NCBI GenBank assembly: GCA_963555995.3
Contig: OY821641.1
Location: forward strand, 2,624,001 to 2,688,000
Direction: 5' to 3'
Origin: Vicinamibacteria bacterium
GTDB lineage: Bacteria; Acidobacteriota; Vicinamibacteria; Marinacidobacterales; Marinacidobacteraceae
Length of the DNA: 64,000 nt
Positions 13,160 through 29,572 of the stretch are shown here, in pieces. The translations under genes were made by a program, and so were the position numbers. How positions within the stretch are numbered: position 1 is the first letter of the stretch; each line of letters opens with the position of its first letter. The notes under the pieces are model-generated. The model was not told where the DNA came from. It saw only the letters and a list, made by a program, of their open reading frames with translations, and made no database searches.

Positions 13160-13169
13160 CGAGATCACT

Positions 13170-13196
13170 CCTTACCCAGAATCTATCAGGGTAAGG
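13170..13196. promoter_or_regulatory. Inverted-repeat operator of the second TA module
   Basis: CCTTACCC-N11-GGGTAAGG just upstream of the antitoxin start. Confidence 0.6.
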
Positions 13197-13360
13197 CGCC
13201 CTCGAGGAGCCACGCGGTGCGTTTCGCCGAGCGATCCCGAACAGGGGTCCAATCGTCAGGGGACATGCAGCGACGTTCAGCGACCTCTCGGCAACACCTG
13301 ATCAACCAGGGATCAATTGAAAAAACTACGTTTTTTCAATGACTTATGCGTGGTTCGTTC

Positions 13361-13385
13361 TCTTATATCGTTTTTCGATCAAATA
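13361..13385 (+). repeat. 25-bp direct repeat, copy L, with an IHF-like box to its left (13334-13346)
   Basis: TCTTATATCGTTTTTCGATCAAATA; box TTTCAATGACTTA resembles WATCAANNNNTTR. Confidence 0.65.
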
Positions 13386-13409
13386 TGAGAGGTGACCGCG
13401 GGTCAACCG

Positions 13410-14906
13410 TCAGGACGACGGACCCCCGTTTCCGCTTTCCTGCGCCGCCCACCACGGGATGTACCGCATTGCCTTGCGTGAGGCTGCCGCGCTTTCGGGG
13501 GTGATCGCACCGCTCTTCACGGCGTTCCGAATGAGGCGGGAGGCCGTTGCACGGTTCTGGTCGGAGATGCCGAACCGCCGCCGCAGCGACGTGTTCGTGA
13601 GGGCGTCACCGTTCACGTACCGGAGGCACGCATGGAGGTAGCAGGCCCAGTTCCGGTCGTCCGCCCCCAGCTCCCCGAGTTTCTTCCGGGCGTGAAGGGT
13701 CACGCGAGTGAAGCCTCGCGGCTTCTGGAACCGGGGCGGCGGAAGCTCGTGCGCCTCGATTTCCTCGACCACCCGGTCTATGCCCATGCCCCGTTCCTCG
13801 CTGAAACCGAACCGGCGCATGAGCGAGGCGAGCCGGTCGTTGCGGGACTGCGGCGGCGCGTCCACCAGGCGCTCCGTCTCCACCAGCGGTTCGCCCGGAT
13901 TCGTGATCTCGATCCGGCCGTCGAAGATCTCGACCATCGGCCCCGCCCCGCGCACCGCAAGGTCCTGATGGATCAGCGCGTTGGCCACCAGTTCCCGCAC
14001 CGCGACCGGGGGAAACGTCCACTCGATTTCCCGTCGGACCCGGCCAATGACTTCCCGTGACGGCAACTGGCCGTCCAACTGCTGGTTCAGGCGGTCGAGG
14101 CAGCGTGCGTAACCGTCCTCGAACTCCCACTCCCGGGCCTCGCCGGTGCGCCCGGAGCCGCGGTAACGGATGAGCCGCACCGCCTTCCGGCCCAGCTCGG
14201 GAAAGTCCGCCAGCCGTCGCGCCAGCAGCACCGCTCCCAGGTTCGTAACGTCCCACCCTCCGGAAACCCCCGGACGGAGCAACCCGTCCATGGCGAGCAC
14301 CTTGAGGGCGGAGCGCCGATTCCCCGGCGCGGGCTGACGCAGCCGCTCGAAGTACGCGGGGTAATCGAGCAACTGCGCGACCTCTGCCTCGGGGAGGTTC
14401 TCCGCCGCGATACGGGCCTCGAACGGCGTCGCGTCGAAGACGCGCCAGAGCGCCCGTTCGTATTCCGGGAACCTGTCGAGCCGCCGGGTCTGGCTTTCGA
14501 TGCGGAGGAATCTCTCCCCTCCGAAGGCCACCGGCTGGGTCCGCGCAGGGCTGACCTGGAGGACGACGACGCGCTTGTGGTCCACCTCCACTTCGTGGAA
14601 TTCAAAGGGAACGGACGGCGTCAACTGCTGGAGCAGCCACGGGATCAGCGGCTCGCTCCCCTTCGTTTCCTTCCGGGGCTGGAACCGGGTCCCCACGATC
14701 GCATGGGTGCCGTCTTCCACCCCCCAGACCAGGTAGCCGGCGAGCTGGCCGCCAAGCGCCGCGCTGTTGGCGAGCGCCGAGATGCGCTGGCCGATCATCC
14801 TCGGCTCGTTCTGGTTGACCTTGAACTCCACCCACTCGTTCTCCGCCGGCAGTCTGCACAACTCCCGGACCCGCGCCACGATGGACGCGACCTCCCCGCC
14901 GGTCAT
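13410..14906 (-). CDS. AlbA_2 (Schlafen-like) + HATPase_c_4 + HTH ATP-binding protein
   Basis: ENEWVEFK, ISALAN, GYLVWGVED; AVRELVANALIHQD, IEITNPG, SRN..LA.LMRR, EERGMGID; C-terminal HTH. Confidence 0.88.
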   Translation of the reverse strand: MTGGEVASIVARVRELCRLPAENEWVEFKVNQNEPRMIGQRISALANSAALGGQLAGYLVWGVEDGTHAIVGTRFQPRKETKGSEPLIPWLLQQLTPSVPFEFHEVEVDHKRVVVLQVSPARTQPVAFGGERFLRIESQTRRLDRFPEYERALWRVFDATPFEARIAAENLPEAEVAQLLDYPAYFERLRQPAPGNRRSALKVLAMDGLLRPGVSGGWDVTNLGAVLLARRLADFPELGRKAVRLIRYRGSGRTGEAREWEFEDGYARCLDRLNQQLDGQLPSREVIGRVRREIEWTFPPVAVRELVANALIHQDLAVRGAGPMVEIFDGRIEITNPGEPLVETERLVDAPPQSRNDRLASLMRRFGFSEERGMGIDRVVEEIEAHELPPPRFQKPRGFTRVTLHARKKLGELGADDRNWACYLHACLRYVNGDALTNTSLRRRFGISDQNRATASRLIRNAVKSGAITPESAAASRKAMRYIPWWAAQESGNGGPSS

Positions 14907-15005
14907 CGTCCGACGCCTTCCGAGCCCGCCCGGCGTCCCGCCAAACCCGGTGCCCAGGCGATGGAACCCGAGGACTCCGGCGGGGTTGAAGAGCACATGG
15001 GCGCA

Positions 15006-15226: not shown

Positions 15227-17239
15227 GTGTCCGACGATCCCCCCTATGCGCTGCCGAAAGATACGCGGGTCAAGGAATACAAGATCAAGCGAGTCCTCGG
15301 TAGGGGTGGGTTCGGGATCACTTATCTGGTTCACGACCTCAACCTGAAGGGCCCGGTAGCACTGAAGGAGTACTTCCCCGCTGAATACGCCCGACGTGTG
15401 CAAGACGGCTCGGTAAGGCCCATTTCGCCCGAGAGCCGGGCCAACTTCGATTGGGGCCGGAAGCGTTTCGTGGAGGAGGCGCAGACACTCCATCGGTTGC
15501 GGCATCCCAACGTGGTCCGCGTGCTCCAGTGTTTCGAAGCGCATGGCACGGCCTACATCGTGATGGAGCACATCAAGGGCAGGCCGCTGGAGAAGATTCT
15601 CGCTGAACGTGAGCGTCTTCCGGCAGCCGAATGGAAGTCACTGCTCGATCAGCTATTGAACGGGCTCGAGCATGTGCATGAGCACGGCTACCTCCACAGG
15701 GATGTCAAGCCGGGGAACATCATGATTCGTGACCACGGTGCCGAGCCAGTGTTCATTGATTTCGGCAGCGCTCGTGTAGACGCCCAGGATCCCCACACCA
15801 GGGTGCTAACGGAGGCATACGCCCCGCTGGAGCAAGGGATGGGAGAGAAGGAGGGGCCGCCGACCGATCTCTATTCACTCGCCGTCGTGTCGTACCGCGC
15901 GCTACTCGGCAAGCTGCCCCCCAAAGCGCAGAATCGCGCCGTTGAGGACACGATCGCTCGTCTGGAGCAGCGCGTGACCGGGGCAGAGCGCGCGTGGCTC
16001 GCTGCCCTCGATCAATGCCTGAACCTGTATCCCAGAGACCGCCCACAGTCGGTGGCAAACCTCCGGGAGATGCTGGCGAAACCGGCTGGCGCGTCGGACC
16101 GGATGGTCACGCCGCTCTGGGAGACGATCCGACATCCGGTACGTGCCGCACGAAGGCGGGCAGTGCGGAGATATGGCCAAGCGTTTGACCGCAAACTCGA
16201 GAAACACGGAAGCACGATATGGCTCATTGAGTACATGGGTTCGCCGTACGACGGGTGGAAAGTCATCAGGCGGGTAGAAGCTCTGGCGGGTGGAGAAATG
16301 AGCGCGGTCGTGTCCGAGCCCATGCACACCGGCGCCCGAGCTGGTAGGGACCCGCTCTTCGAAAGGCGAGTGGCCACGGAGGAGGAGGGGCTCGCGTGGC
16401 TCTATGAGTTGGAAACGAACGGCAGGATCGCGGAGGCAGCGCGGGAACGGATCGAGAGCTGGCGGAGCCCCAGGAACGAGGACAGCAATGGCAAGACCCT
16501 TTCCGGCGTTATCAGCGTGGATCTCCGCCTGATCCCGCTCCCGTCGTGGAATCGACGGAGTCCTGACGGTGGACCTTACGAATTCCCGACCGTAAACGGC
16601 GTCCGCGTGTGGGATCTCGGCATCCGAACTACAACGCTTCCACCAGTGGGCACCGATGGGGTAACCCGGTTCTCCGGGACCGTCACGGAGTCGCTCCCGT
16701 TGGTGTGGTGGGAAGTGGAGTGGTATCCGTACGGCGCACAGGACGGAAAGCCCCTGCCGTGGTATTTGCCGGGCTCTGTGGGATTCGCGACGTCCCTTGA
16801 GGTACGGAAGCACAAATCTGCCCGTCGCGCGCTACCGCCCAGCTTGGCAGAGAAGATCAGAGCGTGGGACGCCACGAATCACGAATTCGAGGCGATCTCG
16901 TTCAGGGTATCGGGCCAAGTATGGGCGCACGGGAAACACGCCCCGAGAACGTGGCAGCGCAAAAGCGCCCCCGGTGACGGTTGGTGGGTATTGGCAGCGG
17001 CGTTGCTGACGGCCGCGAGTTGCGTCACTCTGTGGGAGGGTGATCGGTGGGCGATCTTGCAGTTCCCTTCCATGCTCGGGGTCTGGATTCTGATCCTCTG
17101 GAAGAAGTTGTGGCGATTTGTTTCGTTTCATGGGAGTGGACTTGATTTCGGCAACGACCAGAGTGGGCTTGAAGGCGGCTGCGGCTGTCTTCTGGTCCTT
17201 GTGGCCTGTACGGTCGCTCCTTTCCTTCGGCACTGCTGA
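15227..17239 (+). CDS. Hanks-type Ser/Thr kinase with unknown C-terminal region and C-terminal TM helices
   Basis: LGRGGFGITY, VALKEY, HRDVKPGN, IDFGSAR, YAPLEQ, DLYSLA. GTG 15227 chosen because the upstream ORF extension is REP DNA. Confidence 0.88.
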   Translation: MSDDPPYALPKDTRVKEYKIKRVLGRGGFGITYLVHDLNLKGPVALKEYFPAEYARRVQDGSVRPISPESRANFDWGRKRFVEEAQTLHRLRHPNVVRVLQCFEAHGTAYIVMEHIKGRPLEKILAERERLPAAEWKSLLDQLLNGLEHVHEHGYLHRDVKPGNIMIRDHGAEPVFIDFGSARVDAQDPHTRVLTEAYAPLEQGMGEKEGPPTDLYSLAVVSYRALLGKLPPKAQNRAVEDTIARLEQRVTGAERAWLAALDQCLNLYPRDRPQSVANLREMLAKPAGASDRMVTPLWETIRHPVRAARRRAVRRYGQAFDRKLEKHGSTIWLIEYMGSPYDGWKVIRRVEALAGGEMSAVVSEPMHTGARAGRDPLFERRVATEEEGLAWLYELETNGRIAEAARERIESWRSPRNEDSNGKTLSGVISVDLRLIPLPSWNRRSPDGGPYEFPTVNGVRVWDLGIRTTTLPPVGTDGVTRFSGTVTESLPLVWWEVEWYPYGAQDGKPLPWYLPGSVGFATSLEVRKHKSARRALPPSLAEKIRAWDATNHEFEAISFRVSGQVWAHGKHAPRTWQRKSAPGDGWWVLAAALLTAASCVTLWEGDRWAILQFPSMLGVWILILWKKLWRFVSFHGSGLDFGNDQSGLEGGCGCLLVLVACTVAPFLRHC

Positions 17240-17327
17240 CGTGTCCCGCTTGCACCTCACCTCATCCCTGACGGCTCTTCGTCCTCCTCCACGCACCAAT
17301 ACGGTGCCCGGTCCATGTCACCGCACG

Positions 17328-18584
17328 GTGCAGTGCCTCACACTCGTTGTGGCGACGCTGGCCTCCTTGGGCTCCACACGCGTTCAAGCGCAGCCACAGA
17401 CTACCGAACCCGCCGTCGTTCGCGTCCTGTTCGCCACTGAGGACGGGTTCGGGGCCGGGTCGGGGTTCTTCGTGAACGACACGCACATCGTCACGAACGA
17501 GCACCTTGTTTCGCATCCCAGTTCAGCTCCCGAATTGTTCGTTTTGTTTGCCGGGCAGGACACCCCGGAACCGGTAGAACTCGACTGGTCGAACCCCGAA
17601 CTCGATCTGGCCGTGCTTGGCTACACCGGTGGCACCTCTCGCGGGGTGCTCGCACTCACCACGGCCGATCCCGCTCGCGGCGCGGAAGTGTTCGCGCTCG
17701 GCTATCCCGGGCCGGCCGATGCCGGCTCGCTTGGCGGGGCCGCGTCGAGCACGCTCACCGAGGGCATCCTGAGCAGGGCGCCGTTCGAGGCGCAGTGGGG
17801 GCGCGACGGAACCGCCTTCGCCCGTGTGCTCCAGCACAGCGCCGCCATCAATCCGGGGAGCAGCGGAGGCCCGCTCGTGAATGCCTGTGGCGCGGTCGTC
17901 GGCGTGAACACGAGCGGCGCTTTCAGCGAGCTGCGGGACGCCGACGGCAACCTCATCGGGACGAGCGCCGCTCAGGGCATCTTCTTCGCCCTGACGGCTT
18001 CGGAACTCCGCGCGGAACTTGGGCGGCGCGGAGTGGACTTTTCCCTTGCCGAAGAGTGCGAATCCGAGGCGGGCGCAGCGCCGTTTCTTCCCTTGTTCAT
18101 CGGCCTGCTTCTGGTTGCGTTGGTCGCAGCCGGCGCCTGGTTCGCGTATCGCCGCTCGCCCCCGGGCGCGGCGGGCACCCCTGTCGGCAGTAACGGGCCG
18201 CCCGCCAAACCCGCAGAGGGCGCGGGCGGACGCCCACCGGTCCACGATCCGCCGACCCCTCCGCCAACCACGGCGCGGTTCACCGGCCGATCCGGGACAC
18301 CGGACCTGTCCGTGCCGGCCCTGAAGGACGCCCGCCACGGCATCAGCATCGGCCGCAATCCTCGACTCGTGGACCGGCCGCTCTCCGACCCGACGCTCTC
18401 CCGCCGTCACTTCCGCGTCAGCCTCGATAACGGCCGCCTGTTCGTCGAGGACCTGGGCTCGACCCACGGCACCTTCGTCAACGGCGAGCGCCTGAAGCCG
18501 TACCATGCCCGCCGCCTCGAAAACGGCGATACCGTCCGCGCCGGAAAGGGAGAATGGCGGTTCACCGCTACGGAGTCCGATTGA
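17328..18584 (+). CDS. Trypsin-like serine protease - TM - FHA protein
   Basis: Signal-like N-terminus, GSGF, TNEH (His), DLAVL (Asp), INPGSSGGPL (Ser), TM LFIGLLLVALVAAGAWFAY, FHA (IGR, SRRH, DLGSTHGT). Start uncertain. Confidence 0.85.
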   Translation: MQCLTLVVATLASLGSTRVQAQPQTTEPAVVRVLFATEDGFGAGSGFFVNDTHIVTNEHLVSHPSSAPELFVLFAGQDTPEPVELDWSNPELDLAVLGYTGGTSRGVLALTTADPARGAEVFALGYPGPADAGSLGGAASSTLTEGILSRAPFEAQWGRDGTAFARVLQHSAAINPGSSGGPLVNACGAVVGVNTSGAFSELRDADGNLIGTSAAQGIFFALTASELRAELGRRGVDFSLAEECESEAGAAPFLPLFIGLLLVALVAAGAWFAYRRSPPGAAGTPVGSNGPPAKPAEGAGGRPPVHDPPTPPPTTARFTGRSGTPDLSVPALKDARHGISIGRNPRLVDRPLSDPTLSRRHFRVSLDNGRLFVEDLGSTHGTFVNGERLKPYHARRLENGDTVRAGKGEWRFTATESD

Positions 18585-18985
18585 AACTGAAGAAACATCG
18601 CGTGCTGATCGTCGGACGGGGCCGGCAGGCGGATATCCGGTTGGACCACCGGACCGTGTCACGCCTGCATCTGGAGCTGGTGTTGGGAGCGGGCGGCGAG
18701 ATTCACGTCGCGGATCGGTCGAGCCGGAACGGCACTCGCGTCCGGTCGGACGGAAAGTGGCAGGCCCTCACCGCGCAGTCCGTGTCCCCTGCGGACCGCC
18801 TGCAGCTCGGCGATCTGGAGACCACGGTAGAGGACCTGCTGCAGCGAGTGCCGGCGGAGCCTCCCGACACCGGCCGGCGCTCTGACGACGGCCCGGGCGG
18901 GCGGCCGGATGCCGCCCCGGACCCGGATCTCCCTTCCGGCCCGGTTCGCCGGAATCCCGAAACCGGCGAAGTGATCCGCGGCTGA
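18581..18985 (+). CDS. Small soluble FHA-domain protein
   Basis: TTG start overlapping the upstream TGA; IVGR, VSRLH, DRSSRNGT; tail ends PVRRNPETGEVIRG. Confidence 0.85.
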   Translation: MKLKKHRVLIVGRGRQADIRLDHRTVSRLHLELVLGAGGEIHVADRSSRNGTRVRSDGKWQALTAQSVSPADRLQLGDLETTVEDLLQRVPAEPPDTGRRSDDGPGGRPDAAPDPDLPSGPVRRNPETGEVIRG

Positions 18986-18990
18986 ACACG

Positions 18991-19755
18991 ATGGCGGACC
19001 CCGGCGAACTTCGCGACCGCCTGACGACGGCGGCGCCCGCCATCGGGCTCGGGTCGGCGTTCGTGGCCGTGTTGAGCCTGCTGCTGACCGAAGGCTGGGC
19101 CGCCGACTTCCTGCTCGACCGCAACTCGACAGTGTTCCCCTATCCGTTCACGATCCAGAACGTCATGTGGCTGCTCTTCTTCGGCGCCTTGGGAGAACTC
19201 TGGGTCCGCTTCCAGCGGAGCAGTCTCGAACGGGTCCAACTGCGGCAGAAACTCCTGCCGGAGGACGAGGAAACGATGCTGCGCATTCAGGACCTGGGCG
19301 CGGTCCGCGCGCGTTGCCGGGGGGAAGAGCGGTTCTTCGTTCAACGGCTCGTGTCCCGCTGCGTCCTCCAGTTCCAGAGCTCGAAATCCACCGAACGCGC
19401 CAACGCGCTCCTCGACTCGTCGCTCAACCTGATGCAGCACGAAGTGGACAACAAGTACGCGATCGTCCGCTATCTGGTGTGGGTCATCCCGACGATCGGC
19501 TTCATCGGCACCGTGGTGGGAATCGCCGCCGCGCTCAACAGCGCAGGCGCCGCCGAGGACTACCAGGACCCCGCGCTCCTCGGAGAACTGACCCGCGATC
19601 TGGGCGTCGCTTTCTACACTACGATGCTGGCGTTGATCCAGTCGGCATTGCTGGTTCTCGCCCAGAATCAGGTGCAGGCGCGCGAGGAGGGAGCGCTGAA
19701 CGAGGCGGGCCAGTACTGTCTCGACAACCTGATCAACCGACTCTACGAGAAGTGA
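18991..19755 (+). CDS. MotA/TolQ/ExbB proton-channel family protein
   Basis: Four hydrophobic segments; IPTIGFIGTVVGI and GVAFYTTMLAL match the ExbB/TolQ/MotA channel helices. Confidence 0.88.
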   Translation: MADPGELRDRLTTAAPAIGLGSAFVAVLSLLLTEGWAADFLLDRNSTVFPYPFTIQNVMWLLFFGALGELWVRFQRSSLERVQLRQKLLPEDEETMLRIQDLGAVRARCRGEERFFVQRLVSRCVLQFQSSKSTERANALLDSSLNLMQHEVDNKYAIVRYLVWVIPTIGFIGTVVGIAAALNSAGAAEDYQDPALLGELTRDLGVAFYTTMLALIQSALLVLAQNQVQAREEGALNEAGQYCLDNLINRLYEK

Positions 19756-19765
19756 GGCAGCGCCC

Positions 19766-20422
19766 ATGCCCGTGTATCGAACCCCCGATGGCCGGATCGT
19801 GGAGGAGCGGACCAAGCAGCGGCTGCTCGGGGGACGCCGGAAAACCACCGCTCCCGACAGCGAGCGGACCACGGTTGCGAACGCCGGGGACGAAGCCCCG
19901 CCGTCCCCGAATCCGCCGCGCCGCGGCTACGGTGATCCCACCGTGGTGCACGCGCCTCGTACCCGGGGTACCGGCGCCACGTCTCCCCCAGTAGCTCCCG
20001 ACAGGGAAACGACGCGGCTTCATGGAAGCATCGGTGGAAGCGCGACGGGCGTGGAGGGAGCGCCGCCCGTCGTGGACCCCGTGGCGGGGTGGCTCGTCGT
20101 GGTGGACGGCCCCGGAACCGGGACGGACCTGCGAATCGGCATCGGCCAGAACGTAGTTGGCCGCGATCCCGAGAACCGGATCGGACTCGCTTTCGGGGAC
20201 CGGAAGATCTCCCGCCGCGATCACCTCCGGGTCAACTACGACCATGAGCGCCGCGTGTTCTCGGTGGTGCCCGGGACCAGCGCGAACCTCGCGTATCTGA
20301 ACGGGACGGCGATCGAACAGCGCTCGGTCCTCGCGGCGGGCGACACGATCCGCATCGGACGCACCACGCTGCGCTTCGTCGCCTTCTGCGGAGACGACTT
20401 CAACTGGCCGGATGAGGACTGA
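19766..20422 (+). CDS. FHA-domain protein with Thr-rich disordered N-terminus
   Basis: PVAGWLVVVDGP, NVVGR, KISRRDH, N.AYLNG, GDTIRIG.T.LRFVAFC. Confidence 0.85.
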   Translation: MPVYRTPDGRIVEERTKQRLLGGRRKTTAPDSERTTVANAGDEAPPSPNPPRRGYGDPTVVHAPRTRGTGATSPPVAPDRETTRLHGSIGGSATGVEGAPPVVDPVAGWLVVVDGPGTGTDLRIGIGQNVVGRDPENRIGLAFGDRKISRRDHLRVNYDHERRVFSVVPGTSANLAYLNGTAIEQRSVLAAGDTIRIGRTTLRFVAFCGDDFNWPDED

Positions 20423-21542
20423 TCGCGGCGGCCCGGCACGGCTCGCTCGCGGAGCCAGCGCCGCTACGGCCCTCACCGTCCTGGCGGTCGGCTGCGGAAC
20501 CTCGGGGGTGGGTGCGGACCCGCCGTGGTTCCTCGTCGCGCTTGGGACGGCGGCGCTCCTGGCCTTGGCGGTGTTCGGGCTGGAATTCGCGTTCCGAGGT
20601 TTGCGGATGCGGCGCGCCGCGGTCGGCTCGCCGGGCTCGGGAATCCGCCACGCCCACGGCCAGTCCCTGGGCAAGCGGGAGCGACAGGAAGACGACCTCG
20701 GGCACATTGACGGCGACACCCTCGACCCGGAAGGCAACCATTCCGTCGTCCTGGTGGCGGACGGAATGGGCGGCCACGCCGCCGGCGAGGTGGCGAGCCG
20801 CGCCGCCGTCCGCGGCTTCGTGCAGGCGTACGGAACGCGGGGACCCGCCCCGAACCGCCTCCGGTCGGCGCTCGACCGGGCGAACGCGGCCATCGCCGAA
20901 GAGAGGGATCGGGACAGGGCGCTCTTCGGCATGGGAACCACCCTGGTCGCGGCGGCGGTGACCGAACAGGGACTCCACTGGATCAGCGTCGGCGATTCCC
21001 CGCTCTATCTCTTCCGCGCCGGACGGCTCGAACGGCTGAACGAGGACCATTCGATGCGGCCCGTGATCGCCCGCCTGCTGGAGGAAGATCCGGAAGCGGC
21101 GTCCAACTACAGCCCGAACCAGCTTCTTTCCGCGCTCATGGGCGGCCACATCGAGAAGACGGACGCCCCGGCGACGCCCCGACGACTCGAAGCCGGGGAC
21201 ATCGTTCTGGTAGCGACCGACGGCCTTGAGACCCTCGATGAGGAGGAGACGGAGGCCCTGATCGCGGAGCATCGCGGCGGAGGTCCGGACGCGGTCCGCG
21301 ACGCCCTGCTGCGAGCCGTCGAGGCGAAGGATCATCCCCGTCAGGACAACACGAGCCTGTTCGTGATCGAGGTCGAGCGGAGTTCGGTGAACGGCGGACC
21401 GTCAAGGGACCCGGGCGAGGCGGCGGCAGCGGAACCAGCCACGGAACCTCCGGGAGACGAGGCCGACGGGCGCTCGGCAGAGCCGCGCCCCGACGGACCG
21501 GCAGGCAGCGACGAAGGAGGCGGCGATGCGCGGGACGGGTAG
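20412..21542 (+). CDS. Membrane-anchored PP2C (PPM) Ser/Thr phosphatase
   Basis: Hydrophobic N-terminus; RERQED, VADGMGGHAAGEVAS, MGTTLV, VGDS, EDHS, ATDGL, DNTS. Confidence 0.92.
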   Translation: MRTDRGGPARLARGASAATALTVLAVGCGTSGVGADPPWFLVALGTAALLALAVFGLEFAFRGLRMRRAAVGSPGSGIRHAHGQSLGKRERQEDDLGHIDGDTLDPEGNHSVVLVADGMGGHAAGEVASRAAVRGFVQAYGTRGPAPNRLRSALDRANAAIAEERDRDRALFGMGTTLVAAAVTEQGLHWISVGDSPLYLFRAGRLERLNEDHSMRPVIARLLEEDPEAASNYSPNQLLSALMGGHIEKTDAPATPRRLEAGDIVLVATDGLETLDEEETEALIAEHRGGGPDAVRDALLRAVEAKDHPRQDNTSLFVIEVERSSVNGGPSRDPGEAAAAEPATEPPGDEADGRSAEPRPDGPAGSDEGGGDARDG

Positions 21543-22929
21543 CGCTGCCCTCGTGGCGGCCGTCGTTCTCTTGGGTTTTGCCGCACTGGTGCGAGCGCAG
21601 CCACCGGACCTCAGCGACGTCCGGGAACAGGTGGTCATCGTGCGGGCCTTCGATGCCATGGGGCGCGCGCTGGGCGACATCTCCGGTTTCGCGGTCGGCG
21701 GCGGGTTCGTGGCCACGAACGCCGCGCTGCTCGCCGGAGCGGAGGACGTGGTGATCGTTCTGCCGGAGACCCGCGACGAGTTTCCGGCCGCGGTGGCCGT
21801 TCTGGAACGGCGTTCGGGGGTGGCGGTCCTCCAGGCGGACGGCTTCGGAGCCGCGGGATTGCGCTTCGCCGCCCCGGAAGCGGAGCCGGCGCAGGGCCAG
21901 GGGCTCTACCTGCCCCGCTTCGCCTCCGACGGAACGCTGGACGCGGAAGCGGTTCGCGGTTCGATTTCCGAACTGCGGATCATCGAGCCGACGGCGGTGG
22001 GGGAGCGGGACGTGTTGCTCTACCGCCACAACGCTCCGGCGACGGCGCGCCAGTACGGGATGCCGCTGCTCAACGACTGCGGTGAGGCGGTCGGGCAGTT
22101 GCGCACCGACCCCGACATGTCGCGCACCACCCTGAACGCCCGGCCCGATCCGGGACCCGCCCCGTTCGCGGCAGCGGCGGTGGCGGTTCGCGACGTGCTC
22201 GCTGCGGCCGGGGCCGAACCGGGGCTCGCGGACGAGCCGTGCCTCGATCCGGTCGCCGCAGCGGAGGCGGCGCGGCGGGAGGCGGACGCGGCAGCGGCGC
22301 GGGCCGAGGCCGCCGCCGCGGAAGCGGCAACAGCCGGCGAGGAGCGTGACGCCGCCCGCGAGGAAGCCGAGGCTGCCCGGACGGCGGCGGAAGAGAGTCA
22401 GGCGGAGCGGGAGTCTGCGGAGGCCGAGGCGGAGCGCCTGGCGAGACAGCGCCGCTGGCTTGGGGCTGCGGTGATTCTCGGGATGGCGGTGGTCGTCGCC
22501 GTCATCTTTCTGCTCGCCCAGCGGCTCCGCCGCCGCCGTGAGGCGCTCGCCGCCTCGAAGAAGGAACTGGAAGGGGCCCTCCGCCCGGCCGCTTTCTCCT
22601 GTCTCCTCGACGGCGCCCACGAGAGCGGGCGGGGCTACGCGCTGAAGATCAGCGCCGAGCAGCTTGGTTCGCCCTCGGGGGTGGTCGTGGGGAGGAACCC
22701 CGCCCAGGCGGGAGCCTTGCTCGACCACCCGGAAGCCTCGCGCGAACACCTCCGGCTCACGGCGCGGGGTGACGAACTTGCCGTGACGGATCTCCACTCC
22801 ACGAACGGGACCTTCGTGAACGGCGAGCGGCTGGAAGCGGGAGCGGAGAGCCCAGTGGCGGACGGCGCCGAGATCGGCGTCGGATCGGCCATCACGCTGC
22901 GCCTGACGGTCCAGCGAACCGAAACATGA
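21526..22929 (+). CDS. Inactive trypsin-like domain - coiled coil - TM - FHA protein
   Basis: Signal peptide; ISGF, TNAA (no His), QYGMPLLNDCG (no Ser); Ala/Glu coiled coil; TM; FHA (VVGR, ASREH, DLHSTNGT). Confidence 0.8.
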   Translation: MRGTGSAALVAAVVLLGFAALVRAQPPDLSDVREQVVIVRAFDAMGRALGDISGFAVGGGFVATNAALLAGAEDVVIVLPETRDEFPAAVAVLERRSGVAVLQADGFGAAGLRFAAPEAEPAQGQGLYLPRFASDGTLDAEAVRGSISELRIIEPTAVGERDVLLYRHNAPATARQYGMPLLNDCGEAVGQLRTDPDMSRTTLNARPDPGPAPFAAAAVAVRDVLAAAGAEPGLADEPCLDPVAAAEAARREADAAAARAEAAAAEAATAGEERDAAREEAEAARTAAEESQAERESAEAEAERLARQRRWLGAAVILGMAVVVAVIFLLAQRLRRRREALAASKKELEGALRPAAFSCLLDGAHESGRGYALKISAEQLGSPSGVVVGRNPAQAGALLDHPEASREHLRLTARGDELAVTDLHSTNGTFVNGERLEAGAESPVADGAEIGVGSAITLRLTVQRTET

Positions 22930-23888
22930 GGCCGATCCGCCGCGAAGCGAGCATCTTCAGCGTCTCGGCGATTGATCTGTTCGCGTCGGCGCTCGGCGCC
23001 TTCGTGATCGTCTCCTTCGTCCTGTTCCCTTACTTCCCGAACACCGGTGAGGTGCCCCCGGCCCCGGTGGCTCCGCCGACGCCCCCGCCGCCGGTACCCG
23101 CGCCGCCGACCGGCATTTCGGCGGCGGAGGCAGCCGCCCTCGAAGCGCGGATCGCGGAGTTGGAAGGGGAACTCGGCGCCGCCCGGAGCCGGGAGTCGGA
23201 CCTGGGGGAGGAACTCGGCGACGCAAGGAGCCGGGAGTCCGAACTGTCGCGGGCTCTCGACGAGGCGACCTCCACGATCAGGAAGCTGCCGCCGCTCGAC
23301 CTGGTGATTGCGCTCGACACCACGAATAGCATGACGAACGAAGTCGTTGGGCTTCGCGAAGAGATCGCCGGTCTCGCGGAACTCCTCGTGGAGTTGACCG
23401 ATGACGCGGCGGTGGGCCTGATCGAGTTCAAGGACCGGTGCGATCCCGTGAACGCAGTGCGGGTTACCGGGCTGCGGCCGGTGAACCGTCAGACGGCACA
23501 GGAACTCGCCGTCTTCGCCCGATCCATGATCCCTGGCACGCCGTGCAATTTGACCGCGGACGAGGACTACGCCGAAGCCCTTCGCGCGGCGGTGCTGTCA
23601 GAGTGGCGACCCGTCTCGGAACGGCGATCCATCGTGCTGATCTCGGACAATCCCGCTCACGACGACATGCGCACTCAAGCAATCTCCGACGCGCGGGCTT
23701 TTGCAATGCGGCCGGGGGCTCGCCACACCGTCTCGTCGGTCTTTGTGGACACCAGCCCGAACCCGCGACACCCCGACACGGAGGACTTCATGCGTCAGGT
23801 GACGCAGGCCGGACGAGGCCGATTCGTCGAGGCCGACCGGAATGCGTCGTTATCGGTGACCATCCTCCTGGCGGTCTTCCGGAGCTGA
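22926..23888 (+). CDS. ExbD/MotB-like N-terminal TM(Asp) - Pro linker - coiled coil - vWA protein
   Basis: ATGA overlap; SIFSVSAIDLFASALGAFVIVSFVLF; vWA DLVIALDTTNSM (MIDAS-like), EDY, IVLISDNPAH. Confidence 0.82.
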   Translation: MRPIRREASIFSVSAIDLFASALGAFVIVSFVLFPYFPNTGEVPPAPVAPPTPPPPVPAPPTGISAAEAAALEARIAELEGELGAARSRESDLGEELGDARSRESELSRALDEATSTIRKLPPLDLVIALDTTNSMTNEVVGLREEIAGLAELLVELTDDAAVGLIEFKDRCDPVNAVRVTGLRPVNRQTAQELAVFARSMIPGTPCNLTADEDYAEALRAAVLSEWRPVSERRSIVLISDNPAHDDMRTQAISDARAFAMRPGARHTVSSVFVDTSPNPRHPDTEDFMRQVTQAGRGRFVEADRNASLSVTILLAVFRS

Positions 23889-23944
23889 AGAGACCACAAA
23901 CCACCAGTCGCATCCCTCCCCGCAGGTAAGACCCGAGCGCGACC

Positions 23945-26900
23945 ATGGCCCGTGAGTACCCCGACGCGCTCCCAGCGGGCTATCGGCTCGAGGAATTCAA
24001 GATCGTCCGCGTGCTCGGCCAAGGAGGCTTCGCGATCACCTATCTGGCGAAGGACAACTACCGGGATCAGGAGGTGGCCCTCAAGGAGTATTTCCCGGCC
24101 GGCAACGCCATGCGAACCGGCGGGACGCGTGTGGAGCCGACGCCGGGCGCCCGCGAGGTCTTCGACTGGGGATACCGACGCTTTCTCGATGAGGCGCGAG
24201 CGCAATCGAAGTTCCGCCATCCCAACATCCCGGTGCTCCATCGGTATTTCCGCGCCAACGGCACGGCCTATGTCGCCATGGATTACATCAAGGGACCTTC
24301 CCTTTCGGATCTTCTCGCTGATCGCGGCAGTCTCTCCGTGAACCAGTGGCGTCCATGGCTGGATCGTCTGCTCGACGCACTGGAACACGTACATGGCCAC
24401 GACTACCTGCACCGAGATATCACGCCTCGCAACATTTTGATCCGAGAGTCTGACAACCAGCCGGTTCTTATTGATTTCGGGGCCGCCCGGGTCGCTGGCG
24501 GCGACAAGACCCGAACGGTGGTCTTGACCAAGGCCTACGCCCCGCCAGAGCAAGGTTCAGCCCGCGCGAAGCAGGGACCCTACACGGACATCTATGCACT
24601 CGGAGCAGTGTCGTACTGCGTGCTCACCGGTGAGCTGCCAGCCACCCCGTCTGACCGGGCTGCTGGGGAGGAGCATGAGCCCCTCGCACAGCAACTGGAA
24701 GAGGCTTTCGACTGGGTCGTTGCCGTGGACCGGGCGCTCTGTCTGCGGCCGAAGGACCGTCCACAGAAAACCGCCGCGTGGCGGAAGGAACTGCACGAAG
24801 CAGCCGCGAAGATGTGGTTGTCGGGCGAGCCCGATCAGATAGCGGCCCGGGATGCCGAAGGACTGACGCCCCTCCACCGCGCCGCCGCGGCAGAGCCGGT
24901 TCCCGGCGTCGTGGCGACCTTGCTCGAACTCGGTGCCGACATCCACGCTGTGGCGGGAAGGGACGACGTCGTTCTCTTTGAAAGGCACGGCGACACGCCG
25001 CTACACCGGGCTGCGGCGGCCAATCCGAATCCGGACATAACGGCGGTTCTGCTAGACCGCGGTGCCGACGTTCGGGCGCAGGACCTGATAGGTGAACAGC
25101 CTCTCCACCACGCAGCGAGGCACAACTCCAATGCGAAAGAGATCGCTCTGCTGCTCGACCGCGGTGCCGACATCCACGCCAAGGACGACTCTGGTAGCGC
25201 GCCTCTACACGCGGCCGCCGAGGCCAATTCCCATCCAGGCGTGCTGACGCTCCTGCTTGACCGCGGCGCCGATATCCACGTCAGAAACCGGGATGGAGAA
25301 ACGCCGTTGCACCACGCTGGGGAGAACCCACACGCCGACGTCGTGACCCTTCTCCTCGACTTTGGCGCCGACCTGCACGCGCGGGATGCCAACGGGAATA
25401 CGCCGCTCCATGTCACGGCGTGGCATAACAGAAATCCGGAAACATTCAGGCTCCTGTTGAATCGCGGTGGCGACCTGCAGGCACGGAACAGTTCCGGCGC
25501 TACGCCCCTCCACTGCGCGGTGCGAGGGAGTCAGAGCAGCGAAGTGTTGGCCCTTCTTCTCGACCAGGGCGCCGACCCTCACGCAGTTGACGGCGAGGGG
25601 CGGACAGCCCTGCACTGGGCCGCATCGGAAGACGCCATGGAGACGGTGCAACTGCTCATTGAGCGCGGCGCGGACATCGAGGCGAAAGACTCCGATGGAC
25701 GTCGCCCGCTCCATCTCGCGGCGTCTGAGGACGCCTCCAGCGCGGCCGAATTGCTCCTCAGTCGCGACGCGTGCGTCCGAGCACGCGACCAAGGCGGGTG
25801 TACTCCACTTCACCGGGCCGCGGGCCGGGATTGCCTGCGGGTCTCACAACTGCTGCTCGACAACGGCGCAGACGTGGGAGGGCGGACTCCGACCGATACC
25901 CGAAACTGGACCTCGAAGCTGGATCTTGGTCGAGCGGCAGGTGAGGAGTTGGAGACGCTATGGTGGTTGGCCTTCGACAGCTACGATCCGACCACCAAGG
26001 TTCCGATCTCGATACATGACCCAGACTGGGCGCTGTGGTTCCTGGCATGTGACAACCACTGCGACATCACCGGCTGGGCAGAGACAACGCCTCTACACAC
26101 GGCGGCGCGAACCAATGGCCAGCGTGTGACCGCGCTGCTCCTTGACCGCGGCGCCGATCCAGCGGCCAGAGATTCCACCGGAAGGACACCGCTTCACGTG
26201 GCGGCCCTGAACAACGCCGTGGATGCCGCGAGACTTCTGATTCAGTCGTCTCCGCGCAGCTTGGGCGTCAAGGACACCGCCGGCAGGACACCGCTGCACT
26301 TTGCCGCCTGGGGCGATGCCAGAGAGACGGCGGAACTACTCCTCCGCCATCGTGCCGAGATCAAGTGCAGCGAGGAGACACGCGCCAAGACTTGGTTCTG
26401 GAAGGAGAGCCGCAGGCCCGCCGACATTGTGTGCCTCTTGCTCAGTGGTCCATTCGGCGAACCGGGAAGCGGCTGCCGCGAAGACGCGAAAGCGGTAAAG
26501 GGCTGGCACGACCTTCGGATGCTCACGGAACGACTCCTGCACAAGGGCCATACACCGTTGCATTGGGCTGCGTTCGGTGACTCTCGGGACGTAGCCGAAC
26601 TGCTTCTCGATAAAGGTGTGAATGTCCATGGAGGTGCGGATGACGGAATGACGCCCTTGGACCTGGCAGCGCTCGGCGACGCCTTGATCACCGCACGGCT
26701 GCTCATAGATTGCGGAGCGGATGTCTGCGGTCGGAAAGGTCATGCCACGCCACTGCATTGGGCCGCGCTTGGAAACAGCCGCGAAACTCTGGCACTACTG
26801 TTGGAACGCGGTGCTGATGTCGCAGTGGATATCGGTACAGCGAAGTCCGAAGGAATGACCGCTCTTTTCTGGGCGGTACTCGGAAAGGCTTCCCACGCTG

Positions 26901-29572
26901 CGGAGTTACTTCTGGAACACGGAGCAGAGCTCGGACAGGCCGTGGGTTATGGCCTCGTGTCGCGCCCCTGGATGGACTGGAAGGACGCGCGCGAGGGTGT
27001 TGAGGCACTCAGCGAGGAGTCGAATTCCACGCTGCTTCACTGGGCAGCACTGCGCGATGCCACGGACGTCGTGGACATGTTGCTTGACCGCGGCCTCGAT
27101 CCGGAGGCGGAAGACGCCGAGGGCCGGACGCCGCTGGACTACGCCGCCCAAGGTAACGCCGTCGGTGCGTTGGAGCGTCTTCTGGATCGCGGGGCCGACA
27201 CGAGTGGCAGTCGACGGACGAGCGGCACACCACTTCACAGCGCGTCCCGCGCCGATGCAGTGGACGCCGCGCATCTGTTACTGGAACGTGGATCGGATGT
27301 GCAGGCCGGCGAATCCGACATCGGCACGCCGCTCCACATGGTCCGTTCGACGGAGCTCGCGTCGCTTCTCCTCGATAGTGGGGCCGACGTTGACGCGCGA
27401 GACTCCAACGGAAGCACTCCACTTCACAGCGCCAACGGCAACCGAGCCGTCGCCGAGCAACTGCTTGAACGGGGTGCCGACATCGAAGCGACTGAAGGCT
27501 CTGGAAATACGCCGCTGCACCATGCCGCCGGGGCAGAGAAAGGAAGTGATGTTGCGGAAATCCTGCTCGATCGTGGCGCATCCATCAATGTACCGAACCA
27601 CAACGGAAATACCCCTCTGCACCTAGCCGCATCCGAGACCGGACACAACGATGCCGGAAAGGCGACTGTACTTTGCCTACTCAGGCGGGGTGCTGATGTC
27701 GACCTCGTCAACGCGGATGGCAAGACGCCGCTGATGGTTGCCATCGAAGGGTCCGAAGACTGGGAGGACGTGGTTCGGGATGTGGCAGCATGCTTCCTTG
27801 ACCACGGAGCGGACATCAATGCCCGTGACACACGTGGAAGTACGCCGCTCCACCTGGCGGCTCGATGTCGGTATTCGTCGGTGAGTGAGGAACTGACCTC
27901 GCTGCTCCTTGAGCGTGGTGCCGCCGTTGACGCTGCAGACAACGACGGTCGTACGGCGCTCCATGTTGCTGCAGGCACAGGGCATTCGCGGGTGTCGGCC
28001 GAGCTAATCCGTCGCGGAGCCGACGTCCACGCCCGGACGAAAGAGGGGGAGACGCCGCTGTACAGTGCCGCCGATGGAGCGGCGTGGGGACGATCCGCTG
28101 AGGCTGTGGAACTCCTTCTGGATGAGGAGGCGATGGTTCACGCGAGAACGGAGGACTGCTGGACCCCTCTTCACGCGGCGGCAAGTAGCGGAGCGAAGGA
28201 AGCAGTTGAACTGCTCCTGGATCGCGGAGCGGACTGCCAGAGCCAGACGCGATCCGGCGAGACGCCACTGCATCTGGCGGCGTATCTGCATCTTGTCCAG
28301 GAGTCGGACAATTCGCCCCCGACCGTCAGCAGGCAGCAACTCGAAGTTGTGCAACTGCTCTCGCGTGGGGGTTGCGAGTGGAATGTGAAGGATGAGAGTG
28401 GAGATACGCCACTGAGGTGCTATGTGAGGCAGTGGTGGAGATACAGGAATCGCATGCCCGACGGCCTTGACGGCATCGAATTCGTCCGGCGTTGCGGTGT
28501 GGATGATTCCGCCTTAGTCAATGCCGCCGTCGAGGACCTCGTTCGAGTAGCACCCGAGATGCGTAGCCGATCACTATCTGGCGATCCCGAGAACGCGTCC
28601 GAATCTCTGGACACCCGCACTTACGAGGATTCCAAGGCCACTGTTGATTTTCTTCTCGATCGCGGCGCCGACGTGAATGTACTCAACGCAGCCGGGCGCG
28701 CGCCGATCCACATCGCGGCGGCGGCGGGCGTACCGTCCGTCGTCGAATTCCTTCTGGACCGAGATGCGGAGGTCAACCGCCCCGATGCAAGCGGAAACAC
28801 GCCGCTTCACTCTTGGGCTGAGCAAGTCCTCCTGGATCGCGGTGCTGACGTGATGGCGCGCAATGCGGACGGCGAAACCCCGCTGCACTCGGCAGCGGGT
28901 CGTGATGACTATGTAGCGGCGGAGTTCCTGCTTCGCCATGGTGCAGATGTTGACGCGAGGGACAAGAACGCCGCGACGCCCCTGCATCGGGCCGCTTTCG
29001 AGAATTCGACGAGTGTCGCGGAACAGCTACTGGATCAGGGTGCCGACATCGCGGCCGAAGACCAGAGCGCTGAGACTCCGTTGCACGCCGCGATCCGCGG
29101 TGGCGCCTGGGAAACAGTCGAATTCCTACTGGAACGCGGGGCGGACCCGCAGTCCATCGAGGAGTACGAGTCGGAGGGTCTGGTGGAGACTGGGGCGTCG
29201 ATCGAGGACCGCATCTGTGCCGGGAAGATGCTCCGGATCAAGCGAATCGAGGAGGGCCTGTTTGATGCGCTATGGGAGGGGCTGGACGAACTCTCCCGCC
29301 GCAAGGGATGGGATGAAGGTATGCGCGTCTTTCGGCGGTTACATGAGTGTGTGGAAGACTGGGGCAGTGCGCGATACATGTTCGACTACCCAGAGGAGAA
29401 TCGCGGATTCGGCGCAAGTCTTGAAGGGCTGCTCCGGGAAGAGGGTGAGGAAGGACCGCTGATGCGCCAGCTTCGAGACAAAGCCGACTTCGAATGGCTC
29501 CGCGATCTGGTGTGGGAGCTCAGAGACGGCACGTTGCTGGACCCAGAGCGGTGGGTTGAACGGATGGACTGA
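23945..29572 (+). CDS. Ser/Thr kinase fused to ~36 ankyrin repeats
   Basis: LGQGGFAITY, VALKEY, HRDITPRN, IDFGAAR, YAPPEQ, DIYALG; then repeated G.TPLH.AA...LLD.GAD. Confidence 0.92.
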   Translation: MAREYPDALPAGYRLEEFKIVRVLGQGGFAITYLAKDNYRDQEVALKEYFPAGNAMRTGGTRVEPTPGAREVFDWGYRRFLDEARAQSKFRHPNIPVLHRYFRANGTAYVAMDYIKGPSLSDLLADRGSLSVNQWRPWLDRLLDALEHVHGHDYLHRDITPRNILIRESDNQPVLIDFGAARVAGGDKTRTVVLTKAYAPPEQGSARAKQGPYTDIYALGAVSYCVLTGELPATPSDRAAGEEHEPLAQQLEEAFDWVVAVDRALCLRPKDRPQKTAAWRKELHEAAAKMWLSGEPDQIAARDAEGLTPLHRAAAAEPVPGVVATLLELGADIHAVAGRDDVVLFERHGDTPLHRAAAANPNPDITAVLLDRGADVRAQDLIGEQPLHHAARHNSNAKEIALLLDRGADIHAKDDSGSAPLHAAAEANSHPGVLTLLLDRGADIHVRNRDGETPLHHAGENPHADVVTLLLDFGADLHARDANGNTPLHVTAWHNRNPETFRLLLNRGGDLQARNSSGATPLHCAVRGSQSSEVLALLLDQGADPHAVDGEGRTALHWAASEDAMETVQLLIERGADIEAKDSDGRRPLHLAASEDASSAAELLLSRDACVRARDQGGCTPLHRAAGRDCLRVSQLLLDNGADVGGRTPTDTRNWTSKLDLGRAAGEELETLWWLAFDSYDPTTKVPISIHDPDWALWFLACDNHCDITGWAETTPLHTAARTNGQRVTALLLDRGADPAARDSTGRTPLHVAALNNAVDAARLLIQSSPRSLGVKDTAGRTPLHFAAWGDARETAELLLRHRAEIKCSEETRAKTWFWKESRRPADIVCLLLSGPFGEPGSGCREDAKAVKGWHDLRMLTERLLHKGHTPLHWAAFGDSRDVAELLLDKGVNVHGGADDGMTPLDLAALGDALITARLLIDCGADVCGRKGHATPLHWAALGNSRETLALLLERGADVAVDIGTAKSEGMTALFWAVLGKASHAAELLLEHGAELGQAVGYGLVSRPWMDWKDAREGVEALSEESNSTLLHWAALRDATDVVDMLLDRGLDPEAEDAEGRTPLDYAAQGNAVGALERLLDRGADTSGSRRTSGTPLHSASRADAVDAAHLLLERGSDVQAGESDIGTPLHMVRSTELASLLLDSGADVDARDSNGSTPLHSANGNRAVAEQLLERGADIEATEGSGNTPLHHAAGAEKGSDVAEILLDRGASINVPNHNGNTPLHLAASETGHNDAGKATVLCLLRRGADVDLVNADGKTPLMVAIEGSEDWEDVVRDVAACFLDHGADINARDTRGSTPLHLAARCRYSSVSEELTSLLLERGAAVDAADNDGRTALHVAAGTGHSRVSAELIRRGADVHARTKEGETPLYSAADGAAWGRSAEAVELLLDEEAMVHARTEDCWTPLHAAASSGAKEAVELLLDRGADCQSQTRSGETPLHLAAYLHLVQESDNSPPTVSRQQLEVVQLLSRGGCEWNVKDESGDTPLRCYVRQWWRYRNRMPDGLDGIEFVRRCGVDDSALVNAAVEDLVRVAPEMRSRSLSGDPENASESLDTRTYEDSKATVDFLLDRGADVNVLNAAGRAPIHIAAAAGVPSVVEFLLDRDAEVNRPDASGNTPLHSWAEQVLLDRGADVMARNADGETPLHSAAGRDDYVAAEFLLRHGADVDARDKNAATPLHRAAFENSTSVAEQLLDQGADIAAEDQSAETPLHAAIRGGAWETVEFLLERGADPQSIEEYESEGLVETGASIEDRICAGKMLRIKRIEEGLFDALWEGLDELSRRKGWDEGMRVFRRLHECVEDWGSARYMFDYPEENRGFGASLEGLLREEGEEGPLMRQLRDKADFEWLRDLVWELRDGTLLDPERWVERMD

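What the first reader, a model, noticed from the sequence alone, without database searches (positions are those of the whole stretch)
15227..29572. Candidate undescribed system: an ion-channel (stator-like) pair wired to a complete pThr signalling circuit and trans-envelope protease receptors
Seen: nine co-oriented genes, with the central seven overlapping or at most 10 nt apart. Order: kinase-TM; trypsin-TM-FHA; FHA; MotA/ExbB; FHA; TM-PP2C; dead trypsin-CC-TM-FHA; TM(Asp)-CC-vWA; kinase-ankyrin. The locus holds writers (2 kinases), an eraser (PP2C) and four readers (FHA). Known: ExbB/ExbD, TolQ/R, MotA/B and ZorA/B are ion-driven motors; vWA + PP2C + kinase is the TerY-P triad; kinase + PP2C + FHA gates the Pseudomonas H1-T6SS. 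None of those has this composition, and no TonB, OmpA-domain, ZorC/D or T6SS core gene is present. Inference: a phosphorylation-gated, PMF-energised envelope complex that recruits FHA-tailed periplasmic proteases. Its position among TA and nuclease genes suggests a defence or host-contact role.
Basis: partly seen in the sequence, partly recalled or inferred. Interest (0 to 1): 0.92.

Follow-up and report, generated by a model that had tools for sequence, protein, structure and literature searches.

The report
Kinase-gated vWA proton motor with proteases
This is a real gene cluster, shared by bacteria of five phyla, in which a predicted proton-driven membrane motor sits with kinases, a phosphatase, phospho-threonine readers and a live-plus-dead pair of membrane-anchored proteases; it likely works as a signal-switched envelope machine, and no test of it was found in print.

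Summary
The nine genes and their domains are confirmed. The linkage is conserved: of 42 fully flanked non-Gemmatimonadota genome loci, 34 hold MotA, TM(Asp)-vWA, the GarA-like FHA, PP2C, a kinase and the dead trypsin-FHA, in five phyla and 15 gene orders. The motor core is not new. A TolQ-like pentamer with a trans-pore-helix vWA was predicted in 2025 (PMC12204202). Nine literature searches found no paper with the phospho or protease wiring. This scan found the same system before on other DNA (three notes).

Added here: the kinases are T6SS PpkA-type, yet TssC is missing in 28 of 31 carrier genomes. One FHA protein has an invariant Thr aligned with the GarA switch site. The ectodomain-TM-FHA slot takes dead trypsin, live trypsin, thermolysin or vWA. 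Kinase tails vary widely. Gemmatimonadota keep motor, vWA and a kinase-less receptor.

Best reading: sensor kinases switch on assembly of a proton-driven periplasmic grip-and-cut machine. 'Trans-envelope' is unsupported, and the defence context is only weakly supported.

The parts
15227..17239 (+). PpkA-type Ser/Thr kinase, then an unassigned ~270-aa region and weak C-terminal hydrophobic segments (frame open from 15119; start uncertain)
   Evidence: Pkinase 1e-36; K83, HRD193, DFG214 counted from 15119; best PDB hit PpkA 5hnv 7e-49, next 9e-23; no Atlas hit for residues 345-615
17328..18584 (+). Active trypsin-like protease - TM - FHA (frame open from 17118; start uncertain)
   Evidence: His/Asp/Ser triad in 34 of 34 homologues
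18554..18985 (+). Small FHA protein (F3) with a conserved C-terminal 'RRNPxTGE' motif; the gene most tightly linked to MotA
   Evidence: an FHA gene lies directly upstream of MotA in 72 of 74 metagenome loci with enough upstream DNA
18991..19755 (+). MotA/TolQ/ExbB-family channel subunit, four predicted TM helices
   Evidence: PF01618 2e-12; P167, T174, T210, T211 in 80 of 80; AF2 pLDDT 92
19766..20422 (+). GarA/OdhI-like FHA protein (F5): conserved N-terminal motif, disordered Thr-rich arm, C-terminal FHA
   Evidence: T83 in 50 of 50, T59 in 41 of 50; best PDB hits GarA/OdhI, T83 aligned with the ETTS phosphosite
20412..21542 (+). PP2C phosphatase with lineage-specific N-terminal TM
   Evidence: PP2C_2 2e-12, Stp1 8e-35; Asp motifs found; TM position variable
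21526..22929 (+). Catalytically dead trypsin - coiled coil - TM - FHA, full-length paralogue of gene 2
   Evidence: catalytic Ser replaced by F/Y/W/A in 38 of 38; hhalign with gene 2 family E 5e-63
22926..23888 (+). Trans-pore-helix (Asp17) - Pro linker - coiled coil - vWA with MIDAS-like residues; predicted B subunit of the motor
   Evidence: D17 in 72 of 74, D131 68, S135 67, D241 69 of 74; AF2 model; vWA fold Z 18.8, rmsd 2.5, 172 aligned to 6fpy; homologous to paired TPH-vWA, E 5e-10
23945..29572 (+). Ser/Thr kinase fused to a long ankyrin array, no TM found
   Evidence: HRD156, DFG177; kinase domain 49% identical to that of gene 1

Best explanation
The locus likely encodes a proton-driven 5:2 inner-membrane motor (MotA pentamer plus vWA-tipped trans-pore dimer) whose assembly with periplasmic proteases would be switched on by threonine phosphorylation. 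Shown: gene set, linkage, catalytic and pThr-binding residues, channel residues, folds. Inferred steps: (1) the kinases are the inputs, sensing through interchangeable binding tails; (2) they phosphorylate the Thr arm of F5 (T83, T59), a GarA-type switch; (3) phospho-F5 and F3 gather the FHA tails of the live and dead trypsin proteins at the cytoplasmic face of MotA; (4) proton flow past Asp17 turns the vWA dimer, which grips a periplasmic or envelope protein through its metal site while the dead trypsin holds it, so that force exposes it to the live protease; (5) PP2C resets the complex. The likely role is an accessory envelope response to contact or attack.
For: Linkage of the six-part core in 34 of 42 loci, all eight gene types in 26 of 42, 15 orders, five phyla. 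Channel residues invariant and the same A/B pairing modelled for the sister family (PMC12204202). All four FHA domains keep R, S and H. F5 T83 invariant and aligned with the GarA site. Kinases PpkA-type; PpkA, Fha and PppA time the assembly of a membrane machine (abstracts). Kinase tails vary (Ank, FGE, PEGA, Sel1, PG-binding, LRR, PDZ) and loci hold up to five kinases, which fits many inputs and one output. The ectodomain-TM-FHA slot is filled by unrelated proteases, trypsin (40) and thermolysin M4 with HExxH (13), as well as dead trypsin (62) and vWA (6). In 27 Gemmatimonadota loci FHA, PP2C and trypsin genes are lost together as the kinase decays.
Against: No interaction, phosphorylation, ion flux, substrate or expression was shown. 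A live protease is missing within the flanks of 8 of 42 loci, and several metagenome loci hold only kinase, two FHAs, MotA and two vWA genes, so proteolysis is not the universal output. The motor pair persists without the circuit in Gemmatimonadota and in 9 of 9 Alteromonadaceae pair-type loci, so the motor does not need phosphorylation in principle. vWA distances do not track MotA distances once close pairs are removed (rho -0.14). The window's largest kinase has no TM, so it cannot sense the periplasm directly. Many loci are close kin (15 of the 34 are Latescibacterota, some from one genome).
Confidence: 0.42

Rival explanations
1. The motor is the sensor and the kinase the output. The single-pass receptor protein is the TonB/TolA-like load-bearing partner, the motor pulls on ligand-bound vWA and receptor, and the kinase-FHA circuit reports the load to the cytoplasm (integrin-like mechanosensing, or Zorya-like logic).
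For: The most constant trio is MotA, TPH-vWA and an N-in receptor: of 78 loci with 5 kb on both sides, 60 have a kinase, 17 more an LRR-type protein, 75 the TPH-vWA. In Gemmatimonadota the TM-PG-binding-coiled-coil-LRR body stays after the kinase is lost. The sister family keeps kinase-less TPR and PEGA-FGE proteins. The vWA resembles integrin I domains.
Against: No S-x3-H TonB-type motif in 112 kinase, 95 trypsin or 13 M4 TM helices. No conserved cytoplasmic effector gene among neighbour clusters. Kinases without TM exist.
Confidence: 0.24
2. It is a stand-alone anti-phage or anti-competitor system in which the proteases cut an incoming tail, tape-measure or toxin protein in the periplasm, or the kinases stop growth. 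This names a role and is compatible with the best explanation.
For: Patchy presence: 1 of 15 same-genus and 4 of 27 same-family genomes. Three PIN genes lie within 25 kb against 0.31 expected. PADLOC hits in 10 of 58 flanking proteins against 2 of 47. The kinases match PD-T4-6 and MAD6 profiles at 1e-41 to 1e-49.
Against: The enrichment is not significant (p 0.06 by protein, 0.15 by locus), several hits are generic folds, and hosts differ between the sets. The genome has 47 PIN genes. Some loci sit among housekeeping genes (FtsK-LolA-SerS, complex I). The PADLOC kinase hits cover the kinase domain only.
Confidence: 0.25
3. It is an Agl-Glt-like adhesion or surface-movement machine whose outer-membrane partners are encoded elsewhere.
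For: GltG has FHA domains predicted to pack on the AglR pentamer (PMC11761067 passages). The sister pair-type cluster has a lipoprotein-like gene and TPR and PEGA-FGE proteins.
Against: No TonB_C, ExbD or outer-membrane gene is conserved in the FHA-type loci, and profiles of the sister lipoprotein-like genes find nothing in them. Presence is patchy within a genus.
Confidence: 0.12
4. These are T6SS accessory genes (PpkA, PppA, Fha) with the core elsewhere.
For: The kinase is closest to PpkA among solved structures.
Against: TssC/VipB is found in 0 of 1 (own genome, 93% complete), 1 of 5 and 2 of 25 carrier genomes; the FHA match to TagH is far below cut-off.
Confidence: 0.02

Closest known systems
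Predicted TolQ-like / TPH-vWA 5:2 motors (PMC12204202, section 8)
   Same: TolQ-like gene without exbD/tolR, TM-tethered vWA with a conserved trans-pore Asp, Thr ring in the A subunit; gene 8 is a full-length homologue of paired TPH-vWA proteins.
   Different: The paper's family comes mostly as heterologous pairs and its main text has no 'kinase'. The pair-type MotA is only 19-23% identical to this one and sits with TPR and PEGA-FGE genes. Here there is one vWA gene, four FHAs, PP2C, PpkA-type kinases and two trypsin paralogues.
T6SS threonine-phosphorylation pathway (PpkA, PppA, Fha)
   Same: PpkA-type kinase, PP2C and FHA readers beside a membrane machine.
   Different: No sheath in 28 of 31 carriers; the machine is an ion motor; four FHAs, two of them tails of membrane proteases.
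GarA / OdhI
   Same: FHA domain preceded by a disordered arm with an E-x-T motif that aligns with the known phosphosite.
   Different: Extra conserved N-terminal motif; encoded next to a motor, not a metabolic regulator context.
Zorya (ZorA5B2)
   Same: MotA-type 5:2 motor core; weak ZorA profile hit over the channel only (3.9e-7, 92 residues).
   Different: No ZorA tail (254 aa), vWA in place of the peptidoglycan-binding domain, no ZorC/D.
TerY-P triad
   Same: vWA, PP2C and kinase genes together.
   Different: The vWA is on a trans-pore helix, linked to MotA; the kinases have no zinc ribbon or OB fold among the Pfam hits; FHA and proteases added.
Agl-Glt gliding motor
   Same: TolQ-like pentamer with FHA-bearing single-pass partners.
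   Different: No AglQ/S (ExbD-type) or TonB_C; FHA proteins have the reverse topology (periplasmic N-terminus, cytoplasmic C-terminal FHA).

Membership tests
TPH-vWA 5:2 motor (predicted class) | tolQ-like gene with linked TM-vWA gene and no exbD/tolR | tested here: met
   TPH-vWA in 75 of 78 loci with 5 kb flanks; no ExbD in the window locus and no hhalign match of gene 8 to the genome's ExbD
TPH-vWA 5:2 motor (predicted class) | conserved Asp in the trans-pore helix; conserved Thr in the A subunit | tested here: met
   D17 72 of 74; T174, T210, T211 80 of 80
TPH-vWA 5:2 motor (predicted class) | vWA genes predominantly in heterologous pairs | tested here: not met
   single gene in the window and in all 60 full-flank genome loci; pairs in 26 of 74 metagenome loci. 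The paper says 'predominantly', so this marks a variant.
TPH-vWA 5:2 motor (predicted class) | 5:2 complex and ion-driven rotation | not testable with these tools
T6SS TPP pathway | PpkA-type kinase, PP2C, FHA | tested here: met
T6SS TPP pathway | T6SS core in the same genome | tested here: not met
   TssC in 3 of 31 carrier genomes; most are MAGs
Zorya | ZorA with long cytoplasmic tail; ZorB with peptidoglycan-binding domain; ZorC/D/E | tested here: not met
   254-aa A subunit, vWA fold on B, no Zor effector hit in PADLOC
TerY-P | TerY-like vWA + PP2C + kinase with C-terminal zinc ribbon or OB fold | tested here: not met
   definition from PMC10542128 passages; 85 kinase tails gave Ank, FGE, PEGA, Sel1, PG-binding, LRR and others, none of those two; no PADLOC hit for gene 6 or gene 8
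TonB/TolA-type transducer systems | transducer TM helix with SHLS motif and TonB_C domain | tested here: not met
   0 S-x3-H in 220 TM helices; no TonB_C in the nine genes
GarA/OdhI-type FHA switch (gene 5) | arm Thr phosphorylated and bound by its own FHA | tested here: inconclusive
   motif and alignment fit; phosphorylation not testable here

The most novel reading that the evidence does not exclude
This is a periplasmic counterpart of an AAA+ protease: the periplasm has no ATP, so a proton motor turns an integrin-like vWA grip to pull or unfold envelope proteins and feed them to swappable membrane-tethered proteases, under the control of a family of receptor kinases with eukaryote-like repeat sensors.
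Probability: 0.2. Interest if true: 0.92.

Novelty: new variant of a known kind. Interest (0 to 1): 0.66.

Why it matters
As far as I recall, and in the papers seen here, 5:2 ion motors are tied to motility, uptake, envelope upkeep and Zorya defence, and none is described as gated by Ser/Thr phosphorylation or coupled to proteases. The locus gives the untested TPH-vWA motor class a concrete circuit with single-residue handles (channel Asp17, F5 Thr83, kinase Lys, protease Ser, MIDAS). Cultured carriers exist among the relatives (Aliiglaciecola lipolytica L041, Halioxenophilus L034, Nioella L031), so it can be tested directly. It also shows that the PpkA-type kinase module controls a machine other than T6SS, if the wiring holds.

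Tried and rejected
The fold search of the MotA model could not be run; its family rests on Pfam, NCBIfam, the AF2 helix pattern and one weak PDB sequence hit (MotA 6ykm, E 0.88). Paired mutual information between MotA and F3 or the vWA helix was inconclusive (effective sequences 45 and 42). The kinase tree did not support or reject a single locus clade (support 0.045), and the MotA tree root was not resolved. MotA T95 as an FHA docking site was rejected: it is kept in 26 of 27 FHA-less loci. Apparent FHA-MotA and MotA-trypsin fusions were ORF-calling artefacts. No RNA holder was listed. The promoter and terminator scan was at chance level. The Atlas gave only generic trypsin clusters for gene 7 and nothing for the middle of gene 1. 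An all-against-all BLAST timed out and was redone on a filtered set. Export of kinase-ankyrin proteins as effectors was considered and set aside: no secretion channel gene is conserved in the loci, and the Legionella Ank profile hits reflect repeats far below cut-off.

Full report
Observation. The nine ORFs stand on the + strand in the order given and carry the stated domains. The central seven overlap or lie within 10 nt; the two kinases are about 88 and 56 nt away. PADLOC gave only generic kinase, protease and ankyrin hits and a weak ZorA hit over the channel; genes 3, 5, 6, 7 and 8 had none. NCBIfam gave no hit above a curated cut-off for the nine genes. The genome (3.8 Mb, 93% complete) holds one copy. 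Its two other MotA_ExbB genes sit with ExbD, TonB_C and TolB, or with two ExbD genes and a TonB_C gene.

Conservation. A genome-collection scan with the MotA protein found 91 relatives and kept the best 80. A metagenome scan confirmed 553 and kept 80. I called ORFs and annotated them with profiles built from the window's domains. Of the 80 genome loci, 60 have at least 9.5 kb on both sides; 18 of these are Gemmatimonadota and were counted apart. In the other 42: kinase 42, F5 42, PP2C 41, TPH-vWA 39, F3 39, dead trypsin-FHA 36, live trypsin-FHA 29, thermolysin-FHA 5. The six-part core is in 34 loci from five phyla with 15 gene orders, and all eight gene types are in 26. These loci are not independent: 15 of the 34 are Latescibacterota and some share a genome. 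In metagenomes an FHA gene lies directly upstream of MotA in 72 of the 74 loci with 600 nt upstream. Among close relatives the system is patchy: 1 of 15 same-genus and 4 of 27 same-family genomes.

Motor. The A subunit models as a four-TM helical protein (pLDDT 92) with P167, T174, T210 and T211 invariant in 80. That these match the ExbB channel threonines is recalled, and fits the text of PMC12204202. Gene 8 models as TM helix 10-36, Pro linker, helix 66-116 and a vWA domain (Z 18.8, rmsd 2.5, 172 aligned). Asp17 is kept in 72 of 74 and the MIDAS-like residues in 67-69 of 74. PMC12204202 section 8, read whole, already proposes that such TM-vWA proteins replace TolR/ExbD in a 5:2 motor. Its main text has no 'kinase' and one unrelated 'Fha'. 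Its one supplement held as text has no 'FHA' and only unrelated kinase mentions. The gene maps of Fig. 4c and the SI folders could not be seen and may bear on novelty.

Sister family. A search of 121 genomes around Aliiglaciecola found tandem TPH-vWA pairs. Nine such loci were fetched; all nine read lipoprotein-like gene, TPR, PEGA-FGE, MotA, two TPH-vWA, with no kinase, FHA or PP2C. Their MotA is 19-23% identical to ours and forms its own clade; their vWA protein is a full-length homologue of gene 8. In eight pair-type loci from the window's order and class, an FHA-tailed protein follows MotA in all eight, and a kinase is fused to the TPR protein in seven. Kinase-FHA wiring therefore occurs in both motor subfamilies.

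Circuit. Both kinases keep the catalytic motifs. The best PDB match of gene 1 is PpkA (5hnv, 7e-49; next 9e-23); that this entry is the T6SS kinase is recalled. TssC is absent from the own genome and present in 1 of 5 and 2 of 25 other carriers, so these are not T6SS accessories. All four FHA domains keep the R, S and H of the pThr pocket. F5 has an invariant T83 (50 of 50) that aligns with the second Thr of the ETTS motif of GarA and OdhI, its best PDB hits. F3 ends and F5 begins with short conserved motifs outside the FHA fold, candidates for docking. Of 85 kinase tails scanned, most carry Ank, FGE-sulfatase-like, PEGA, Sel1, PG-binding or LRR domains; 69 of 102 kinases have a TM after the catalytic domain.

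Proteases. Genes 2 and 7 are full-length paralogues. The triad is intact in 34 of 34 of the first family; the Ser is replaced in 38 of 38 of the second. Across the 160 loci and the window, long FHA-tailed proteins carry dead trypsin (62), live trypsin (40), thermolysin M4 with HExxH (13), vWA (6) or an unassigned domain (4 with TM). The slot is modular, and two unrelated protease folds fill it.

Reduced form. The 27 Gemmatimonadota loci keep TPH-vWA (26) but have no F3, F5, PP2C or trypsin. Upstream of MotA they carry a TM-PG-binding-coiled-coil-LRR protein; L044 has a related protein with a full-length kinase domain, L069 a fragment, most none. The clade nests among FHA-bearing loci, which suggests one loss event. 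This shows that the circuit and proteases go together, and also that motor, vWA and receptor body can persist alone.

Mechanism. I commit to kinase-gated assembly of a proton-driven grip-and-cut complex (0.42). The gene set, residues and folds are shown; every contact, the direction of signalling and the substrate are inferred. The main rival makes the motor the sensor and the receptor its load-bearing partner (0.24), because MotA, TPH-vWA and a receptor protein are the most constant trio. No TM helix has the TonB-type S-x3-H motif (0 of 220). vWA distances do not follow MotA distances beyond close pairs, which fits a fast-changing binding domain but weakens tight co-evolution.

Role. Three PIN genes lie within 25 kb against 0.31 expected, though the genome has 47. 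PADLOC hit 10 of 58 proteins flanking 24 loci, against 2 of 47 flanking 15 pair-type loci (p 0.06 by protein, 0.15 by locus). These were up to three or four neighbours per locus, not all neighbours, and hosts differ. Defence is plausible and unproven.

Literature. Nine searches found no paper with this composition; the library lacks most subscription papers. Seen: PMC12204202 (section 8, passages, supplement search); passages of PMC11761067, PMC7159879, PMC11341870, PMC10542128 and 10.1101/2024.07.22.604496; abstracts of PMC6082577, PMC3953482 and PMC11946911. Three earlier notes of this scan report the same or the sister system in other genomes; I had reached this reading before that call, and they are not independent support.

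Verdict. A real, conserved and untested system, and a new variant of a predicted motor class. Interest 0.66.

Noticed in passing
L210:5075-16780, L211-L217: Pair-type cluster common in the window's order (MotA-like match in 24 of 27 genomes of two families): lipoprotein-like gene, kinase-TM-TPR, PEGA-FGE, MotA, a 465-aa protein with C-terminal FHA and an unassigned N-terminal region that looks actin/Hsp70-like by eye (no Pfam or PDB hit), and two TPH-vWA genes.
   Followed up: partly
L042-L074 (Gemmatimonadota), gene upstream of MotA: Decay series of a receptor kinase to a TM-PG-binding-coiled-coil-LRR protein, with the vWA gene convergent on MotA.
   Followed up: partly
L034, L039-L041, L070, L089, L091, L109, L110, L113, L123, L128, L148: Thermolysin (M4)-TM-FHA genes with HExxH, often next to a second, longer PP2C with a TM.
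   Followed up: partly
L097, L106, L136, L141, L142, L153: vWA-TM-FHA proteins in the slot of the trypsin-FHA genes.
   Followed up: partly
L032, L035, L036, L038, L075; L037:8510-9907: The F3-type FHA with its C-terminal motif is fused to the live trypsin-TM protein, or in L037 to a kinase, directly upstream of MotA.
   Followed up: partly
L076, L077, L080 (gene after MotA): Kinase reduced to a C-lobe remnant without HRD, followed by TM and FGE domain.
   Followed up: no
window 10061-14996: Two PIN toxin-antitoxin-like pairs, an AAA-PD-(D/E)XK gene and a Schlafen/AlbA-RecG-like gene upstream of the locus.
   Followed up: partly
window 32166-34223 and 35125-37215: Two neighbouring minus-strand ORFs of about 690 aa that appear paralogous from their overlapping antisense frames, with a PIN pair between them.
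   Followed up: no
window 16150-16960 (gene 1, residues 345-615): Region without Pfam or Atlas match, found in only 4 of the first 81 loci including the window.
   Followed up: partly
G000:C1:3009752-3014815: A separate two-FHA protein next to another Ser/Thr kinase, unlinked to the motor.
   Followed up: no
L034:16950-17618, L055:6440-8458: OmpA-domain genes near the locus in two relatives; not conserved.
   Followed up: no
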